A DNA stretch of 64,000 nucleotides. Source: Octopus vulgaris (lineage: Eukaryota). The stretch's first letter is position 1; every line of letters starts with the position of its first letter. Where the stretch lies: contig OX597814.1 of assembly GCA_951406725.2 (NCBI GenBank), positions 188,108,001-188,172,000 on the forward strand. Reading direction: 5' to 3'. The translations under genes and the position numbers were made by a program. The notes under the pieces are model-generated. The model ran no database searches, was not told the DNA's origin, and saw only the letters and a list, made by a program, of their open reading frames with translations. Below, in pieces: positions 5,395 to 49,331 of this stretch.

Positions 5395-6081
5395 ATAGTG
5401 ACCCAGCTATATTTGTCTACATAGGTTGACCCAGCCATATTTTTTTACATAAATTGACCCAGCTATATATGTACATAGGTTGACCTAGCCGTATTTCTAC
5501 TTAGATTGACCCAGCTATATATCTGTAGAAATTGATCCAGCTATATATCTAAATAGATTGACTCAGCAATATTTCTACCCAGATTGGCCCAGCTATATAT
5601 CTACATATTTCTACGTAGATTGACCCAGCTATTTTTCTGTAGAGATTGATCCAGCTATACATATCTACATAGATTGACCCAGCTATATATCTATCTATAT
5701 AGATTGACTCAGCAATATTTCTACACAGATTGGCCCAGCTATATTTGTCTACATAGGTTGATCCTGCAATATATTTGCATAAATTGACCCAGCTATATAT
5801 GTACATAGGTTGACCCAGCCGTATTTCTACGTAGATTGACCCAGCTATTTTTCTGTAGAGATTGATCCAGCTATATATATCTACATAGATTGACCCAGCT
5901 ATATATCTATATAGATTGACTCAGCAATATTTCTACACAGATTGGCCCAGCTACATATCTACATAGGTTGATCCAGCCATATTTCTACATAAACCGATCC
6001 AGCTATATTTCTGTAGAACGATCCAGATATATTTCAACGAAGATTTACTGAACCACATAACCACATAGATTGTCCTAGCTA
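5395..6081. repeat. ~26-bp minisatellite (consensus agattgacccagctatatatctacat) with higher-order duplications
   Basis: Unit repeated more than 20 times. Variant blocks recur at 5451/5781 and 5615/5831. Confidence 0.9.
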
Positions 6082-8557: not shown

Positions 8558-9754
8558 CATTATTGTTGTTGTTGTTGTTGTAGTAGTAGTAGTTGTTATT
8601 GCTGTTGCTCTCCCCGACATGACAACACCTACCATCTCCAAAACCACCACCACAACCATCAACACCATCATCATCAACATCATCATCATTAACATCATAA
8701 ACCGTGTTGTGTTATTGTCATTGTTGTTAGTGTTGTTAGTACCGCCAAAGTAGTAATCTCTTAACGTTGTCAGGAGCGTGTAATTGGCTGACTATTTAAA
8801 AGAAAAGGAGCAAGAGAGAAAGAAAGAAAGAAAGAAAGAGAGAGAGTGAGAGAGGAAGTGAGTGAAATTGAAAGAAGGAGAAAGAGAGAATAAACGGGAT
8901 CTGGTATCATAACAACCTCAATAATTGGAAACGAAATGTTACCCTGGATATTATGGAAGGGTTGAAGAGATCATAAATCGTATTTCACACTGGAAACGAT
9001 TCAGTTTACAAACTTCTGATAGCTTTAACGACTCTATAATGAGAACTGAAGACAGTTGTGCTGTGTGATGAAAAATTAATTAGTGCAAACAGCAAGGATT
9101 CTCTGAAGATACAAATTGAAAGAGCAGCAGCAGCAGCAGCAACGACAAAGGAAGCAACAACAATAACAACTATAGTTTCAAATACTGGCACAAGGCCAAC
9201 ACATTTGGGGGCAGAGGCTAAGTCGATTACATCGACCCACCCCGAACAAACGAAAGGAAAAGTCGACCATTTTGGAATTTGAATTCAGAATGTAAAGACG
9301 GACGAAATGTCGCTAAGCATTTCACCCGGTGTGCTAATGATTCTGCCAGCTTTCCTCAATGAGCGCAGGGCCCGAAATTTTGGGGGCAGGGGCTGGTCGA
9401 TAAGATCGACCCAGTGCTTAATTGGTGTTTATTTTATCGACCCCGAAAGGATGAAAGTAAAAGTCGACCTCGGTGGAATTTGAACTCAGAACGTAAAGAC
9501 AGACGGCATACATTTTTCTTTACTACTCACAAGGGGCTAAACAATGCCGCAAAGCAGGAGGAAAATATGTCAAAAGTTGACTCTGGAGCTCAGCGCAGCC
9601 CAGCGATTCGCTGGATCGTTTCAAACTGTCTATTTCTTGCCGCCATGGAAAACGGATGTTAAATGATGATAATGATTACTCACACATATATACGAGCACC
9701 GCCAGCAATTTTTTTCCCTCTGTCTTCCCTTCTCGGGATCTTTCCTTCTCCTTT

Positions 9755-9893: not shown

Positions 9894-9972
<79 letters not shown>

Positions 9973-10247
9973 ATGTATATATATATATATACAGTAGTAC
10001 CTCGATTTACGAACGCCTATGATCACAAATATATCGTGCTTTATATATATCAATATATATATTTATATACATATAGATACACACACACACATACACACAT
10101 ATATAATAGTGTATGGAATATACACGGAGAGAAAACCACCATGTGGATTTCTTACATGCTAAAAATGGCAGTCAAAGCTCCAAACCAGGAAAAGACTTTC
10201 TAACATTAAAGCACGTTGTATGCGAGCAAGACATTTGAGTGAATAAA

Positions 10248-10361
10248 CATTTCGATTGACCTTATACCATGAGTTTCGCCGCTAATAACCAAATAAATCA
10301 ACTAATAAGTTAATTGATTAATTAGTCATCCGTTGCTCGTCAGTAAGGTCGTTGTGAAATG
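10248..10361 (-). ncRNA. Type I hammerhead ribozyme with long helix II
   Basis: Minus strand: catttc-acaac-gacctta-CTGACGA-gc...(long AT-rich hairpin)...gc-GAAA-ctcatgg-TA-taaggtc-aatc-gaaatg. Predicted cleavage at GUA (position 10265). Confidence 0.85.
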
Positions 10362-10380
10362 CATAAATATGAGACTACAA

Positions 10381-10776
10381 TCTTTATATATAAAAGAAAG
10401 GTTGTGTGTCTGTCTCCTACGATTTAGATTCCTAACTACTCCCACATTTTGCGGTGCAGTGTAACCAAAAGCGGGTATCTTATAGTCGTGATTCATATCG
10501 AGCCCTTCTGGTTATTAGCGCGCGTCTACGATGAGTCTACGATTAAAAAAAAAATTTACCATCATTTTTTCCCATTTTTTAATGCATTTTTTTGCTATTA
10601 TATAAGGGAAGTAACTCTCTAAAAATGTATTATTAAATCTCAGAACGTAAAGAGCTACAGTAACACCCCCCTTTGTGGTTAGCCATATTGAGATGGCTAT
10701 TATACTTTACATCTCTAAAAATGCTTATATAGTTATTTCCCTTACAAACCCGAGCAACGCCGGGCGATACTGCTAG
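10381..10776 (+). mobile_element. Non-autonomous Helitron
   Basis: 5' TC(tttatatataaaa), subterminal GC hairpin cccgagcaacgccggg, 3' CTAG; inserted between A and T with no TSD. Confidence 0.85.
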
Positions 10777-10914
10777 TATGTAATAAAAATACGAAGTAAG
10801 CACATGCGCATTCAGTTCCATCTTTATACATCAAAAATTCAAATCAAATGCTCTCAAACAGCGTGCAAGTATACATTTGAATTTATTCAACGTTATATAC
10901 ATATATAGATATTC

Positions 10915-11118
10915 ATTTATTCTTTTATTTGCTTCAGGCATTTGACTGCAGCCATGCTGGAGCACCGCCTTTAGTCGAACAAATCGACCCCAGGACTTAT
11001 TCTTTGTAAGCCTAGTACTTATTCTACCGTTCTCTTTTTGCCGAACCACTAAGTTACGGGGACGTAAACACACCAGCGTCGGTTGTCACGCGATGGTGGG
11101 GAGACAAACACAGACACA

Positions 11119-11239: not shown

Positions 11240-11766
11240 TGAATGAGCTACAGGGATAGGCTGAGAAAGCTACAACTTTACTCCCTGGAGTGAAGGCGTG
11301 AGAGATATGCAATAATATACATATAGAAAATCCTAGAAGGGCTAGTACCTAAATTCAGTACTGAGTGTTATACAAATGCCAGAACTGGCCGCCATTGTAT
11401 CGTACCAAAAGTACCATCCCTTCCATTTAAATTCAAGACCAGGTACTGCAATAGTCTTGGGTTCAAAGACCCACAGCTCTTCAATGCCCTGCCACGAAAA
11501 TTAAGATCTCTGCTCAAGGTGGAAGTAGACGGGTTCAAAAAGGAACTAGACATCTTCCTCTCCACAATACCGAATGAATCAACAGTACGACATGAAGTGC
11601 AGACGAGGGCAGCGGAATCGAACTTCCTTATACGCTAAATGTACCAATAGCTGGAATAAAGGCACATACAGGAGTGGTGATGTGAAACACCCCAGACTGA
11701 GGAAATCAGAAAGACCATGTGCTCCAGCATGATCACCGCCGCATCGCTGAAACGAGTAAAAGAGTA
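11240..11766 (+). mobile_element. CR1-type LINE 3' remnant (ORF2 C-terminus and tail)
   Basis: Reads SYRDRLRKLQLYSLE*RRERYAIIYI*KILEGLVP...SLGFKDPQLFNALP...FKKELDIFL, the CR1-type C-terminal motif with stops. The tail is gctccagcatg...ctgaaacgagtaaaagagta. Confidence 0.8.
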
Positions 11767-15447: not shown

Positions 15448-15844
15448 TATTTTGATTTTTAAAATTATTTATGCTGTTGTTAATAGTAATGGTGGAAATT
15501 TTTAGAACGGCTGATCACTCGCTAATGATTCTAGTCGATTAAGAGATAATCTAGAACTAGAAAAATCAACAAAAACTAAGCGTCAAAAAAGGAAGGTAAG
15601 ACACAAACTCACAGAGGTTCCAAAACATATCCAGCTTCGCCAATAAAGAACAAGAAGAAGAAAAATACAACAGTATTTTTCTGTGAATCGAATGCAAAAT
15701 TATAGAAAGCGAAAAAGGCAAAAAATGGAACGTTTCGAACTTCGGTATTCTTCCTGTTTTAGAAGAAAGAAAAACCAGCTGGTAACTATTTAGAACTTCT
15801 GCGAGTTATTACCTACTGTGCGTTTATATGAACGAGTATTTACC

Positions 15845-16258
15845 TATTTCTTTACTACCCACAAGGGGCTAAACACAGGGAACAAACAAGGACAGACAAA
15901 CGGATTAAGTCGATTACATCGACCCCAGTGCGTAACTGATACTTATTTAATCGACTCCGAAAGGATGAAAAGCAAAGTCGACCTCGGCGAAATTTGAACT
16001 CAGAACGTAGCGGCAGACGAAATACCTATTTCTTTACTACCCACAAGGGGCTAGACACAGAAGGGACAAACAAGGACAGACAAACGGATTAAGTCGATTA
16101 CATCGACCCCAGTTCGTAACTGGTACTTAATTTATCGACCCCGAAAGGATGAAAGGCAAAGTCGACCTCGGCGGAATTTGAACTCAGAACGTAGCGATGG
16201 GCAAAATACCGCTAAGCATTTCGCCCGGCGTGCTAACGTTCCTGCCAGCTCGCCGCCT
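15845..16258 (-). mobile_element. SINE family B tandem dimer with 18-bp TSD
   Basis: TSD tatgaacgagtatttacc at 15827-15844 and 16259-16276; structure head-body-tail-body-tail. Confidence 0.9.
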
Positions 16259-20405: not shown

Positions 20406-20821
20406 AAGGCAGCGAGCTGGCAGAAATGTTAGCACGCCGGGCGAAATGCGTAGCCGTATTTTGTCTGCCGTTACGGTCTGAGTTCAAATTCCGCCGAGGT
20501 CGACTTTGCTTTTCATCCTTTCGGGGTCGAAAATTAAGTACCAATTACGCACTGGGGTCGATATAATCGACTTAATCCGTTTGTCTGCCCTTGATTGTCC
20601 TCTCTGTGTTTAGCCCCATGTGGGTAGTGAACAAATAGGTATTTCGTCTGCCGTTACGTTCTGAGTTCAAATTCCGCCGAGGTCGACATTGCCTTTTATC
20701 CTTTCGGGGTCATAAATATAAGTACCAGTTGAGGACTGGGGTCGATATAATCGACTTAATCTGTTTGTCTGTCCTTGTTTGTCCTCTCCGTGTTTAGCCC
20801 CTTGTGGGTAGTAAAGAAATA
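20406..20821 (+). mobile_element. SINE family B tandem dimer with 15-bp TSD
   Basis: TSD ggtatcatttataaa at 20388-20402 and 20822-20836; ~183-bp body-tail duplicated. Confidence 0.9.
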
Positions 20822-21129
20822 GGTATCATTTATAAAACATCAGAGTGGTATCAATTATAAAACATCATTCGGTGAAAATGGGCTGTGATCTAGAAAATGT
20901 TCTGAGCCACTGTTTTAAAGTATTAAAACAGATTATCTAACCTGAAAATTTGACTTCTCTAAGTATTTTACAGACAATCTTAGTTTAGAAAATTTGACCT
21001 TATCTTTATGAGTCACGTAGTCTCATACTTTATATGTGCTGGATCCTTATAATGGTTTCATTAAGCTTTACTGCTGATTATTATCGTTTCTAGCCGACGG
21101 TTTTAAGTCATTCATGAGCAAGAATTATT

Positions 21130-27597: not shown

Positions 27598-28046
27598 TAT
27601 AATTAATTAATAAGGGTGAGAGAATTAGATACTAATTTAATAGTATATTTATTCAACACCAAGTGGCCTAGTGCTACGAGAAACCTGGATTATTATAATA
27701 TTTTATAACATATTATAATATTTTTACAAAATAAATATAAGAGAGTGGTCACTATATTGCTCACTCTAGCACCAGTTAATCCAAAAGGTTTCAACCACGA
27801 AAATACATGTTTCCCATGAAAGTCAGTACGATTGTTAGCTCACACGGACAGGGCAGATAAAAAATAACAAAAATACAGATTATTTTGGGACAATTGTTTC
27901 GCTATTAATGAATTAAATGTAATTTTACTTACAAAAAATCCATTTGTAGCTCGTCAGCCAAGACTATCTGGATGAAATCCACTCAATCACACGCCAGATT
28001 TTTACCATAACGATAAATACGCGTGTGGTTCAATTGATTACATCCG
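27598..28046 (-). repeat. Inverted partial copy of the 534-bp unit (left arm of a ~436-bp-arm palindrome)
   Basis: 27598-28033 is the reverse complement of 28050-28484 (one 1-bp indel seen), with a 16-bp spacer. Confidence 0.95.
27876..27970 (-). ncRNA. Type I hammerhead ribozyme (inverted copy)
   Basis: Reverse complement of 28112-28206; core tcgtcag at 27951-27957; cleavage at position 27889. Confidence 0.85.
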
Positions 28047-28111
28047 TATTTGAACCACACGCGTATTTATCGTTATGGTAAAATCTGGCGTGTGATTGAG
28101 TGGATTTCATC

Positions 28112-28206
28112 CAGATAGTCTTGGCTGACGAGCTACAAATGGATTTTTTGTAAGTAAAATTACATTTAATTCATTAATAGCGAAACAATTGTCCCAAAAT
28201 AATCTG
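28112..28206 (+). ncRNA. Type I hammerhead ribozyme, unit 1
   Basis: cagat-agtc-ttgg-CTGACGA-gcta...tagc-GAAA-CAATTG-TC-ccaa-aata-atctg; GUC cleavage after 28193. Confidence 0.9.
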
Positions 28207-28645
28207 TATTTTTGTTATTTTTTATCTGCCCTGTCCGTGTGAGCTAACAATCGTACTGACTTTCATGGGAAACATGTATTTTCGTGGTTGAAACCTTTTG
28301 GATTAACTGGTGCTAGAGTGAGCAATATAGTGACCACTCTCTTATATTTATTTTGTAAAAATATTATAATATGTTATAAAATATTATAATAATCCAGGTT
28401 TCTCGTAGCACTAGGCCACTTGGTGTTGAATAAATATACTATTAAATTAGTATCTAATTCTCTCACCCTTATTAATTAATTATAATTATGCTGCATTTAT
28501 TTCTAAATGCTGTATTTGTTTTCCGTGAAAGTTTGGCGCGCTGTTGGTTGGGGCATTTGAATTATAACGTCGGATGTAATCAATTGAACCACACGCGTAT
28601 TTATCGTTATGGTAAAATCTGGCGTGTGATTGAGTGGATTTCATC

Positions 28646-28740
28646 CAGATAGTCTTGGCTGACGAGCTACAAATGGATTTTTTGTAAGTAAAATTACATT
28701 TAATTCATTAATAGCGAAACAATTGTCCCAAAATAATCTG
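28646..28740 (+). ncRNA. Type I hammerhead ribozyme, unit 2
   Basis: Identical motif; cleavage after 28727. Confidence 0.9.
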
Positions 28741-29179
28741 TATTTTTGTTATTTTTTATCTGCCCTGTCCGTGTGAGCTAACAATCGTACTGACTTTCAT
28801 GGGAAACATGTATTTTCGTGGTTGAAACCTTTTGGATTAACTGGTGCTAGAGTGAGCAATATAGTGACCACTCTCTTATATTTATTTTGTAAAAATATTA
28901 TAATATGTTATAAAATATTATAATAATCCAGGTTTCTCGTAGCACTAGGCCACTTGGTGTTGAATAAATATACTATTAAATTAGTATCTAATTCTCTCAC
29001 CCTTATTAATTAATTATAATTATGCTGCATTTATTTCTAAATGCTGTATTTGTTTTCCGTGAAAGTTTGGCGCGCTGTTGGTTGGGGCATTTGAATTATA
29101 ACGTCGGATGTAATCAATTGAACCACACGCGTATTTATCGTTATGGTAAAATCTGGCGTGTGATTGAGTGGATTTCATC

Positions 29180-29274
29180 CAGATAGTCTTGGCTGACGAG
29201 CTACAAATGGATTTTTTGTAAGTAAAATTACATTTAATTCATTAATAGCGAAACAATTGTCCCAAAATAATCTG
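29180..29274 (+). ncRNA. Type I hammerhead ribozyme, unit 3
   Basis: Identical motif; cleavage after 29261. Confidence 0.9.
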
Positions 29275-29713
29275 TATTTTTGTTATTTTTTATCTGCCCT
29301 GTCCGTGTGAGCTAACAATCGTACTGACTTTCATGGGAAACATGTATTTTCGTGGTTGAAACCTTTTGGATTAACTGGTGCTAGAGTGAGCAATATAGTG
29401 ACCACTCTCTTATATTTATTTTGTAAAAATATTATAATATGTTATAAAATATTATAATAATCCAGGTTTCTCGTAGCACTAGGCCACTTGGTGTTGAATA
29501 AATATACTATTAAATTAGTATCTAATTCTCTCACCCTTATTAATTAATTATAATTATGCTGCATTTATTTCTAAATGCTGTATTTGTTTTCCGTGAAAGT
29601 TTGGCGCGCTGTTGGTTGGGGCATTTGAATTATAACGTCGGATGTAATCAATTGAACCACACGCGTATTTATCGTTATGGTAAAATCTGGCGTGTGATTG
29701 AGTGGATTTCATC

Positions 29714-29808
29714 CAGATAGTCTTGGCTGACGAGCTACAAATGGATTTTTTGTAAGTAAAATTACATTTAATTCATTAATAGCGAAACAATTGTCCCAAA
29801 ATAATCTG
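29714..29808 (+). ncRNA. Type I hammerhead ribozyme, unit 4
   Basis: Identical motif; cleavage after 29795. Confidence 0.9.
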
Positions 29809-30142
29809 TATTTTTGTTATTTTTTATCTGCCCTGTCCGTATGAGCTAACAATCGTACTGACTTTCATGGGAAACATGTATTTTCGTGGTTGAAACCTTT
29901 TGGATTAACTGGTGCTAGAGTGAGCAATATAGTGACCACTCTCTTATATTTATTTTATATTATATATATCTATATATATCTTGTATATATATATATATAT
30001 ATCTATATATATCTTACACACACACGCATACACGCACACACACACATACACACACACATATATATGTATATACATACATATACATATATATCAATATATC
30101 TATATATATATCTTATATACATACATGCATACATACATACGT

Positions 30143-31672: not shown

Positions 31673-32035
31673 CCCACCTACAAATACATAGAGAGCAACA
31701 GAGAGATAAGATTTAAAAATGGTGTCATATTCAAAGTAAATGCAGATATGAACTGCAAGACGCAGAACGTCATATACTGCATAACCTGCCCCACATGCAA
31801 GGAGAATTACGTAGGAGAAACTGGTAATTCTTTGTGCCAGCGAGCCAGGATCCACCGACAACATATTCGGCAGGAAGAACTACGCAAAATACCACTAAGC
31901 ACACACCTAGCTACATGTGGAGAAGGAAAATTTAAGATATTTCCCTTCTACAAGTGTCCGAAGAATGACACCCCCTTCAGGAGGAATATGGAAAAACATT
32001 TCATAGCTAAGTTCTCCCCCAAATTAAATGGCTGA
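31673..32035 (+). mobile_element. Penelope-like element 3' fragment encoding a GIY-YIG endonuclease (Neptune-type)
   Basis: MNCKTQNVIYCITCPTCKENYVGETGNSLCQRARIHR...STHL...RRNMEKHFIAKFSPKLNG*: VIY/YVG with CxxC, conserved R, H, E and terminal LN. It is 5'-truncated at a (TA)n tract. Confidence 0.9.
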
Positions 32036-48959: not shown

Positions 48960-49147
48960 TAGAAAAATGAAATATCTTTTTATGGATAATTCGTTTAACC
49001 GATACCTGGGTAGCAAATTCACATCAGAAATAACACGGTTGAAGTTGCGTGCCTAGGGCAGAGACTACGTGTTTTCGTGTGGAAATTTGTCTGTATTTTT
49101 ATAAAATTTATGAATAAATGAAAGAATGGAGTTGAACGACAAATTAA

Positions 49148-49256
49148 CAAATTTCCTTTATTTTCGACATATGTTTCGAAGGCTGCATATTCCTAATTGT
49201 TAAGGAATAAGGAGTACATTATGCCGCTTTCTCTTCAGGAAAAACAAGGAATTTAT
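49148..49256 (-). ncRNA. Type I hammerhead ribozyme with long helix II
   Basis: Minus strand: ttcctt-gt-ttttc-CTGAAGA-gaaagcggcata...tatgcagccttc-GAAA-CATATG-TC-gaaaa-ta-aaggaa; GUC cleavage at position 49166. Confidence 0.88.
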
Positions 49257-49331
49257 GTCAACATCAAGATTCACAAAAACTTTTAGATGACTGCTCTCAC
49301 TGTATATATGTATATATATATACAGAGAGAA

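What the first reader, a model, noticed from the sequence alone, without database searches (positions are those of the whole stretch)
10248..10361. Second, sequence-unrelated full hammerhead (minus strand) with the same architecture
Seen: 7+6-bp helix I with an internal loop, CUGACGA/GAAA core, a long AT-rich helix II, near-palindromic helix III (CUCAUGG, one base from CCAUGG) and a GUA site. It shares no obvious primary sequence with the 534-bp unit apart from the core. It sits between a TA/CA microsatellite and a Helitron. Inference: a distinct family of HHR-bearing retroelements; conserved structure without conserved sequence argues for function.
Basis: partly seen in the sequence, partly recalled or inferred. 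Interest (0 to 1): 0.75.

Follow-up and report, generated by a model that had tools for sequence, protein, structure and literature searches.

The report
Fossil retrozyme hammerhead split by Helitron
This is a real hammerhead-ribozyme motif inside an old, mutated copy of a protein-free jumping repeat of a known kind (a retrozyme, likely pasted in by Penelope-type enzymes); a later transposon has split the copy, it is probably inactive, and it is likely a distant relative, not a stranger, of the young 534-base repeat nearby.

Summary
The type I hammerhead is there (minus strand, 10361-10248; predicted cut after 10265). It lies in a 5'-truncated copy (10101-10380 plus 10777-10868) of a dispersed, non-coding ~540-nt repeat; the Helitron-like element sits inside the copy, not beside it. 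The family is old (median 77% pairwise identity). Variants shared among copies mostly keep base pairs (177 of 246 cells); private ones break them (55 of 66) and do not clearly spare the core: source elements were selected for the fold, inserted copies decay. This copy keeps the core but has a private helix III deletion (family CUCAUGGG/CUCAUGAG/CUUAUAAG) and altered internal loops, so it is probably weak or dead. Copies form partial tandems and inverted arms with two fixed ends, mostly at TA repeats, a Penelope-type footprint; no coding master was found. 'Sequence-unrelated' is not supported: the unit aligns end to end with the 534-bp unit (0 of 300 shuffles as good), with the hammerhead and both ends in register. 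Verdict: new family of animal non-LTR retrozymes, a known kind. The scan has reported other such families, and the two-ended footprint, elsewhere in this genome. Cleavage and expression are untested.

The parts
10101..10380 (-). 3' part of a retrozyme-like unit (about positions 247-537 of the ~540-nt monomer); ends at the family's fixed end '537' and runs into TA/CA repeats
   Evidence: 85-86% to best paralogs; family HMM built without this copy E=4.8e-84; ends
10248..10361 (-). type I hammerhead motif: helix I 10350-10344/10264-10258, core CUGACGA 10343-10337, helix II 10336-10278, GAAA 10277-10274, helix III 10273-10266, predicted cleavage between 10265 and 10264
   Evidence: descriptor, constrained fold -26.9 vs MFE -29.0 kcal/mol, family covariance model 113.8 bits, this copy being among its training rows
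10267..10273 (-). helix III insert CUCAUGG: family 8-mer with a private one-base deletion that spoils the palindrome
10381..10776 (+). 396-bp non-autonomous Helitron-like element (TC start, GC-rich hairpin, CTAG end, between A and T), younger than the host repeat and inserted into it
   Evidence: junctions and hairpin; 40 full-length places at 96-100% incl. self, 1377 first-look candidates; Helitron hallmarks recalled, no library test
10777..10868 (-). 5' remnant of the same unit (about monomer positions 155-240); 5'-truncated, possibly reaching 10891
   Evidence: blastn 88% over 84 nt; HMM E=2.3e-20 for 10891-10775
9894..10100 (.). TA/CA microsatellite tract, the likely insertion target
   Evidence: sequence, TRF 9894-9991; paralog ends mostly abut TA-type repeats
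27598..29960 (.). young 534-bp hammerhead repeat (one inverted arm, direct tandem arm): likely distant relative, used for comparison

Best explanation
The motif is a type I hammerhead inside an old, 5'-truncated, Helitron-split copy of a dispersed protein-free ~540-nt repeat family, which was likely copied from a self-cleaving RNA and inserted at TA repeats by a Penelope-like reverse transcriptase/GIY-YIG enzyme acting in trans (a non-LTR retrozyme); this copy is probably now weak or inactive. Steps. SHOWN: dispersed family, unit ~537-541 nt, head-to-tail partial tandems and inverted arms, variable 5' ends, two fixed 3' ends (unit position ~537 and ~100), no reading frame in the unit, fold kept by shared variants, random private decay. 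INFERRED: a tandem source locus was transcribed; successive hammerheads cut the RNA into unit-length monomers (palindromic helix III would allow a double-hammerhead fold); the monomer was possibly circularised; a Penelope-like endonuclease nicked TA repeats and the RT primed on the RNA at one of two fixed AU-rich sites, one site for each DNA end when both were used, giving the two-armed insertions; running past the unit junction gave the partial tandems. The window copy is a one-armed product primed at the '537' site, later hit by the Helitron and by point changes. The family likely shares an ancestor with a ~450-nt sister family (L151) and, more distantly, with the young 534-bp family.
For: Family: 48 matches from 40 scored of 295 candidates; 79 matches from 40 of 370. 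Architecture; of 57 clustered insertions 29 are two-armed, 15 of the 29 pair an end at >=505 with an end at 65-110, none pairs two ends at 65-110, and in all 4 scored '537+537' one arm visibly runs on into the next unit. No master: tblastn of three Penelope-type proteins hit 3 places among 80 family loci; the two followed up are separate insertions. RT+GIY-YIG elements with open 781-aa frames exist in the genome and also start and end at TA repeats. Structure: 88.9% of 1379 cells paired against 23-46% when slid; 38 two-sided cells against 13.7 shuffled; the three subfamily majorities keep 38, 38 and 35 of 38 pairs, with two-sided changes in helices I and II. Decay: singletons per column 0.64 core, 0.91 paired, 0.78 unpaired; singletons break pairs 55 of 66; variants in 3 or more copies keep pairs in 177 of 246 cells; 21 of 37 copies have an intact core, 3 of 37 keep all family signatures, and this copy fails four of them. 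Kinship.
Against: No cleavage, transcript or circle was observed. No Penelope pLTR homologous to the unit was found (combined HMM against 14 control loci, best E=0.39), so the helper is inferred from the footprint. The number of pairs with two-sided change (11 of 38) is reached by 35 of 500 shuffles and RNAalifold found no consensus structure; the two-sided changes are a few events on subfamily branches. Counted against subfamily majorities the core shows 17 changes where 42 were expected, which could mean some selection on copies or search bias. This copy has a canonical G-C at the base of helix II and a perfect 7-bp helix I, better than most subfamily A copies, so it may still cleave. Kinship with the 534-bp unit is weaker outside the hammerhead: 3' flank 1 of 300 shuffles, 5' flank 8 of 300; the sister-family HMM alone gives only E~1 on it.
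Confidence: 0.82

Rival explanations
1. The unit is the terminal repeat (pLTR) of an extinct autonomous Penelope-like element, and the copies are its 5'-truncated ends rather than a free non-autonomous RNA.
For: Partial tandems, inverted 5'-truncated copies and microsatellite targets are Penelope features (PMC8557442 passages); Xenopus retrozymes resemble pLTRs (10.64898/2026.07.22.740005).
Against: Units join directly 537 to 1 with no coding DNA between; no copy runs into an RT or GIY-YIG frame in 80 loci; the Penelope pLTRs sampled carry short hammerhead-like motifs and do not match the family HMM.
Confidence: 0.08
2. This copy is still an active ribozyme, or has been kept by the host (for example to cut an intronic or non-coding transcript).
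For: All 11 core positions and the GUA site are intact; helix I is a perfect 7 bp with an extra 6-bp helix; two family G-U pairs are G-C here.
Against: Intact cores are common among decaying copies (21 of 37); 12 substitutions against the subfamily majority is typical (median 11); private helix III deletion; third pair of helix II and both internal-loop signatures altered; split by a Helitron about 20 nt upstream; single copy, no partner hammerhead on the same strand nearby.
Confidence: 0.07
3. The family and the 534-bp family arose independently; their likeness is convergence on one ribozyme architecture and AT-rich composition.
For: Default nhmmer misses the 534-bp unit; helix II interiors do not align above chance (42 of 300); the sister-family HMM gives only E~1; shared loop letters could be structural.
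Against: Global alignment 83 against -18.4 +/- 14.8, 0 of 300 dinucleotide shuffles and 0 of 300 local shuffles; 3' flank alone 1 of 300; hammerhead at 284 of 536 against 290 of 534; both fixed ends in register; the covariance model scores the five 534-type motifs 44.6 bits but none of the long-helix-II hammerheads at 49.2 kb, L108 or L109. This rival concerns ancestry only and is not exclusive of the best explanation.
Confidence: 0.2
4. Chance match in AT-rich repeat DNA.
For: Rfam gives no hammerhead hit; the minimum-energy fold is not the hammerhead fold (2.1 kcal/mol gap).
Against: Descriptor background 2 of 60; family-wide conservation of core (95.8% against 85.6% elsewhere) and of pairing; same fold with different helix sequences in the sister family.
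Confidence: 0.01

Closest known systems
Animal non-LTR retrozymes (Cervera and de la Pena 2020, PMC7229834; sections 13, 14 and passages read)
   Same: Type I hammerhead once per unit, low GC, non-coding, tandem and dispersed copies, no LTR/PBS/PPT seen; coexist with Penelope-like elements; mollusc (mussel) examples lack the archetypal loop 1-loop 2 letters.
   Different: Unit ~540 nt against 170-400 nt RNAs there; helix II 59-63 nt with internal loops; family old and at most about two units long in the loci seen; two-armed insertions with two fixed ends are not mentioned in the parts I read; RNA circles untested here.
Retrozymes as non-autonomous Penelope derivatives (Li, Clavereau, Pollet 2026, 10.64898/2026.07.22.740005; parts 1-3 of 5 read)
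   Same: Monomers, dimers and fragments of type I hammerhead units (51-972 bp there) in a genome with EN+ Penelope-like elements; solo monomers read as dead offspring; 8 of 9 tested elements did not cleave.
   Different: They show sequence kinship to pLTRs; I found none for this family. This copy fails their 'active' criterion (two consecutive complete units).
Penelope-like element pLTR hammerheads (Cervera and de la Pena 2014, PMC4209133, passages; Craig et al. 2021, PMC8557442, passages)
   Same: Short helix III with palindromic loop suited to a dimeric fold; partial tandems, inverted 5'-truncated copies, TA-microsatellite targets.
   Different: No RT or GIY-YIG frame; full helix I and a very long helix II rather than a minimal motif; most subfamily A and C copies have G-U where G10.1-C11.1 is usual.
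The young 534-bp hammerhead repeat of this window (27598-29960)
   Same: Unit length, hammerhead position, helix II base and internal-loop letters, palindromic helix III, both fixed ends, TA targets.
   Different: Only 333 identities in 473 aligned columns with 124 gap columns; it is young (99-100% copies, long arrays), this family is old.

Membership tests
Type I hammerhead ribozyme | Core CUGANGA / GAAA / NUH around three helices, open at helix I | tested here: met
   21 of 37 family copies intact
Type I hammerhead ribozyme | Helices supported by compensatory change | tested here: met
   two-sided changes at pairs in helix I and II between subfamilies and in the sister family; few independent events; count of covarying pairs alone not above shuffles (35 of 500)
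Type I hammerhead ribozyme | Match to an Rfam hammerhead model | tested here: not met
   none among the 150 listed of 207 matches or the 3 matches on 10180-10385; the long helix II is the likely cause (inference)
Type I hammerhead ribozyme | Loop 1-loop 2 tertiary contact | tested here: inconclusive
   family keeps a 1x2 loop in helix I and a 4x4 internal loop in helix II, shared with the sister family; altered in this copy; contact itself not shown
Type I hammerhead ribozyme | Self-cleavage | not testable with these tools
   needs in vitro transcription
Animal non-LTR retrozyme | One type I hammerhead per unit of a few hundred bases, low GC, repeated head to tail | tested here: met
   ~537-541-nt unit with direct 537-to-1 junctions; tandems short; the window copy itself is a single truncated unit
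Animal non-LTR retrozyme | No protein coding, non-autonomous | tested here: met
   no RT/GIY-YIG frame contiguous with a unit in 80 loci
Animal non-LTR retrozyme | Expressed as linear and circular unit-length RNA | not testable with these tools
   no RNA holder listed; only contigs available
Animal non-LTR retrozyme | Highly self-paired monomer | tested here: inconclusive
   one decayed monomer folds no better than shuffles, z=-0.45; only the hammerhead region is clearly structured
Penelope-mobilised element | Partial tandems, inverted 5'-truncated arms, fixed 3' ends, microsatellite targets | tested here: met
Penelope-mobilised element | Homology to the pLTR of a coding Penelope-like element | tested here: not met
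   no hit on the Penelope loci sampled; only 32 loci around GIY-YIG matches were examined, of 6136 first-look candidates
Autonomous Penelope-like element | RT plus GIY-YIG reading frame between terminal repeats | tested here: not met
Helitron (insert 10381-10776) | 5' TC, 3' hairpin and CTAG, insertion between A and T without duplication | tested here: met
   hallmarks recalled; no RepHel partner sought

The most novel reading that the evidence does not exclude
Three families in this genome (this one, the ~450-nt L151 family and the young 534-bp family) are successive generations of one long-lived, protein-free RNA lineage that has kept a hammerhead whose tertiary contact uses an INTERNAL loop of an overlong helix II, a palindromic helix III rewritten at least four ways, and the same two priming sites, while the rest of the sequence drifted by 30% or more. 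That would be a natural covariation series for a little-described hammerhead architecture and would show that animal retrozymes evolve as their own lineage with two-ended Penelope priming, not merely as repeated offshoots of pLTRs.
Probability: 0.4. Interest if true: 0.5.

Novelty: new member of a known kind. Interest (0 to 1): 0.24.

Why it matters
The copy itself is an ordinary fossil. Its family is useful as an evolutionary record: it separates selection on source RNAs from decay of inserted copies, shows that the two-ended insertion footprint seen in young families of this genome is old, and supplies compensatory changes that point to which loops of the long-helix hammerhead matter.

Tried and rejected
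Rfam: no hammerhead match. RNAalifold on the 37 copies: no consensus structure, because private mutations break pairs. Expression: no RNA holder listed; contigs of X1, X3, X4, X12 laid at 80% cover mostly the Helitron and cannot show level, strand or ends; no conclusion drawn. Search for a coding master: the family HMM hit beside a GIY-YIG fragment at L151 proved to be a sister retrozyme on the opposite strand, separated by TA repeats and other DNA; Penelope fragments near copies in L030 and L077 are separate insertions; a third near L066 points towards the copy and was not followed. Whole-monomer folding of one copy: not above shuffles. Third window hammerhead (49.2 kb): no alignment above shuffles to either family. 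Closer relatives sharing this copy's helix III: none. Earlier-findings look-up by sequence: nothing. One Pfam accession that I recalled is not in the library. One paper on dimeric Penelope hammerheads is not held, so nothing is taken from it. No supplements were read; those of the 2020 and 2026 papers may list cephalopod families. Rows dropped: of 47 hammerhead-overlapping places 38 were long enough and 37 aligned (one lacked the 3' strand of helix I).

Full report
Observation. On the minus strand 10361-10248 reads as a type I hammerhead: helix I GACCUUA/UAAGGUC, core CUGACGA at 10343-10337, a 59-nt helix II, GAAA at 10277-10274, CUCAUGG, then the U and A of a GUA site; the predicted cut is after 10265 (hammerhead numbering and the NUH rule are recalled). 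The stretch folds at z = -4.41 (0 of 200 shuffles). The hammerhead fold is 2.1 kcal/mol above the minimum-energy fold. My descriptor, at helix I of 7 bp or more, fired in 2 of 60 simulated windows. Rfam has no hammerhead match here. The same descriptor finds five motifs of the 534-bp repeat, one at 49.2 kb and one weak hit at 43.6 kb that I did not follow.

The element. The window is G000:C1:188108001-188172000 of a 2.8-Gb animal genome, likely a cephalopod (my inference; earlier notes say the same). DNA searches give 48 matches from 40 scored of 295 candidates and, with a full unit from L003, 79 matches from 40 of 370; these are lower bounds. The unit is about 537-541 nt, and position 537 joins directly to position 1. 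The window copy covers about positions 155-537: 10868-10777 and 10380-10101. Between them lies a 396-bp element with TC start, hairpin, CTAG end and an A|T target, whose copies are 96-97% identical: Helitron-like by recalled hallmarks, and younger than its host. Contigs of run X1 join across it. So the Helitron splits the repeat; it does not bound it.

Age and decay. Among 62 fragments of 250 nt or more, median pairwise identity is 77% and the median nearest neighbour 86.6%; only three copies on C28 are near-identical (98%), probably a local duplication. Of 47 hammerhead-overlapping places, 38 were long enough and 37 were aligned. 21 of 37 have an intact core. For my 38-pair structure 88.9% of 1379 cells pair, against 23-46% when slid; two-sided cells number 38 against 13.7 in shuffles, but the number of such pairs (11) is reached by 35 of 500 shuffles, and relatedness inflates these measures. 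RNAalifold found nothing. Splitting by frequency explains this: the three subfamily majorities keep 38, 38 and 35 of 38 pairs and differ by two-sided changes in helices I and II; variants shared by three or more copies keep the pair in 177 of 246 cells, singletons break it in 55 of 66, and singletons fall on core, paired and unpaired columns at 0.64, 0.91 and 0.78 per column. Against this, core changes counted from subfamily majorities are 17 where 42 were expected; hidden sub-lineages and search bias can produce that, some selection on copies is not excluded. The simplest reading is selection on source RNAs and neutral decay after insertion.

This copy. It has 12 substitutions from its subfamily majority in the hammerhead (median 11). 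It keeps the core and gains two G-C pairs, but has lost one base of helix III: the family reads CUCAUGGG or CUCAUGAG, subfamily B CUUAUAAG. The 7-nt form occurs only here, the 8-nt forms 25 times as exact patterns. The third pair of helix II, the outer CAG/CUG pairs of helix I and the helix II internal-loop letters are also changed; 3 of 37 copies keep all family signatures and this is not one. The central four bases of helix III covary (C-G in 24, U-A in 6), a pair that cannot close a two-base loop and fits the dimeric fold described for metazoan type I motifs (PMC4209133, passages); it is one event, so weak.

How it moved. Of 57 clustered insertions (two were split by my clustering and three are the C28 duplicates), 29 have two diverging arms; 15 of these pair an end at unit position 505 or more with an end at 65-110, none has two ends at 65-110, 10 have one end elsewhere, and in the 4 scored as two '537' ends one arm visibly continues into the next unit. 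Most ends abut TA-type repeats (read by eye, not counted). Partial tandems, inverted truncated copies and microsatellite bias are Penelope features (PMC8557442, passages). The genome has many RT+GIY-YIG elements, several with open 781-aa frames, which also begin and end at TA repeats. No family unit is contiguous with such a frame: 3 places hit in 80 loci, two followed up and separate, and the family HMM does not match the Penelope loci sampled. Mobilisation in trans is thus inferred from the footprint; self-cleavage to monomers and circles is inferred from PMC7229834 (sections 13, 14).

Relation to the 534-bp unit. One copy aligns colinearly over about 460 nt (score 87, block shuffles at most 64 of 200). 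The family majority aligns globally at 83 against -18.4 +/- 14.8 (0 of 300 dinucleotide and 0 of 300 local shuffles), with the core at 284 of 536 against 290 of 534; the 3' flank alone is matched by 1 of 300 shuffles, the 5' flank by 8 of 300, the helix II interior by 42 of 300. Default nhmmer misses it; without filters E = 9e-4. The covariance model scores the five 534-type motifs 44.6 bits (E = 7e-8) and a sister family at L151 35.6 bits, but not the long-helix hammerheads at 49.2 kb, L108 or L109. The sister family (~450 nt, 70 matches) is plainly homologous to this one (E down to 4e-38) with rewritten helix I, a shorter helix II and helix III CUCGAG, yet its HMM alone reaches only E~1 on the 534-bp unit. 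All three end at matching places for both fixed ends. I put common descent with the 534-bp family at about 0.8.

Comparison and novelty. It works like, and by the features I could test belongs to, the animal non-LTR retrozymes (PMC7229834; 10.64898/2026.07.22.740005, parts 1-3 of 5 read); expression, circles and cleavage are untested, and pLTR homology was not found. It is not an autonomous Penelope element. Searches listed no paper on cephalopod retrozymes; they cover only the held library and I read no supplements. The scan's own notes list 249 fitting findings in this genome, with several young retrozyme families and the two-ended footprint (eight shown); that prompted my test. None matches this sequence. 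Verdict: real motif, new but old family of a known kind, probably dead copy; interest 0.24.

Noticed in passing
window 27598-29960: Young 534-bp hammerhead repeat: one inverted arm plus a direct tandem arm; copies 99-100% identical on many chromosomes, arrays of ten or more units, 897 first-look candidates. Best candidate for cleavage and circle assays.
   Followed up: partly
window 48960-49300 (minus): Third, young hammerhead family (CUGAAGA core, helix III CAUAUG), copies 95-99% identical, many with an inverted arm, 3879 first-look candidates; no detectable kinship with the other two.
   Followed up: partly
L151:3270-3865 (G000:C4:100756769-100757364, minus): Old ~450-nt sister retrozyme family with shorter helix II and helix III CUCGAG; shares the internal loops and both fixed ends.
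   Followed up: yes
L141-L143, L152: Young Penelope-like element with two frames (about 360 aa, then 781 aa RT+GIY-YIG), a tandemly repeated 3' region, a terminal repeat starting at a TA site and, by eye, a hammerhead-like motif with a variant core.
   Followed up: partly
L144, L146, L151:5200-5260: Second Penelope-like family with a short hammerhead near its 3' end, core CCGAAGA in two copies and CUGAAGA in one, helix III GUAC (read by eye).
   Followed up: no
window 31673-32032 (plus): Fragment of a Penelope-like C-terminal (GIY-YIG) region, 90% identical to the L145 protein.
   Followed up: no
L108:45 (plus), L109:455 (plus) and 208 (minus): Further long-helix-II type I hammerheads with helix III CACAUG and CGAUCG, met by chance beside Penelope fragments.
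   Followed up: no
window 11327-11638 (plus): 103-aa open frame that looks by eye like the C-terminus of a LINE protein; no Pfam match.
   Followed up: partly
window 5399-6012: 26-bp minisatellite, about 24 copies.
   Followed up: no
window 15841-16196 and 20456-20826: Tandem dimers of a 184-bp SINE-like repeat that also occurs near 9200-9530 and 10940-11100; SINE label recalled, not tested.
   Followed up: no
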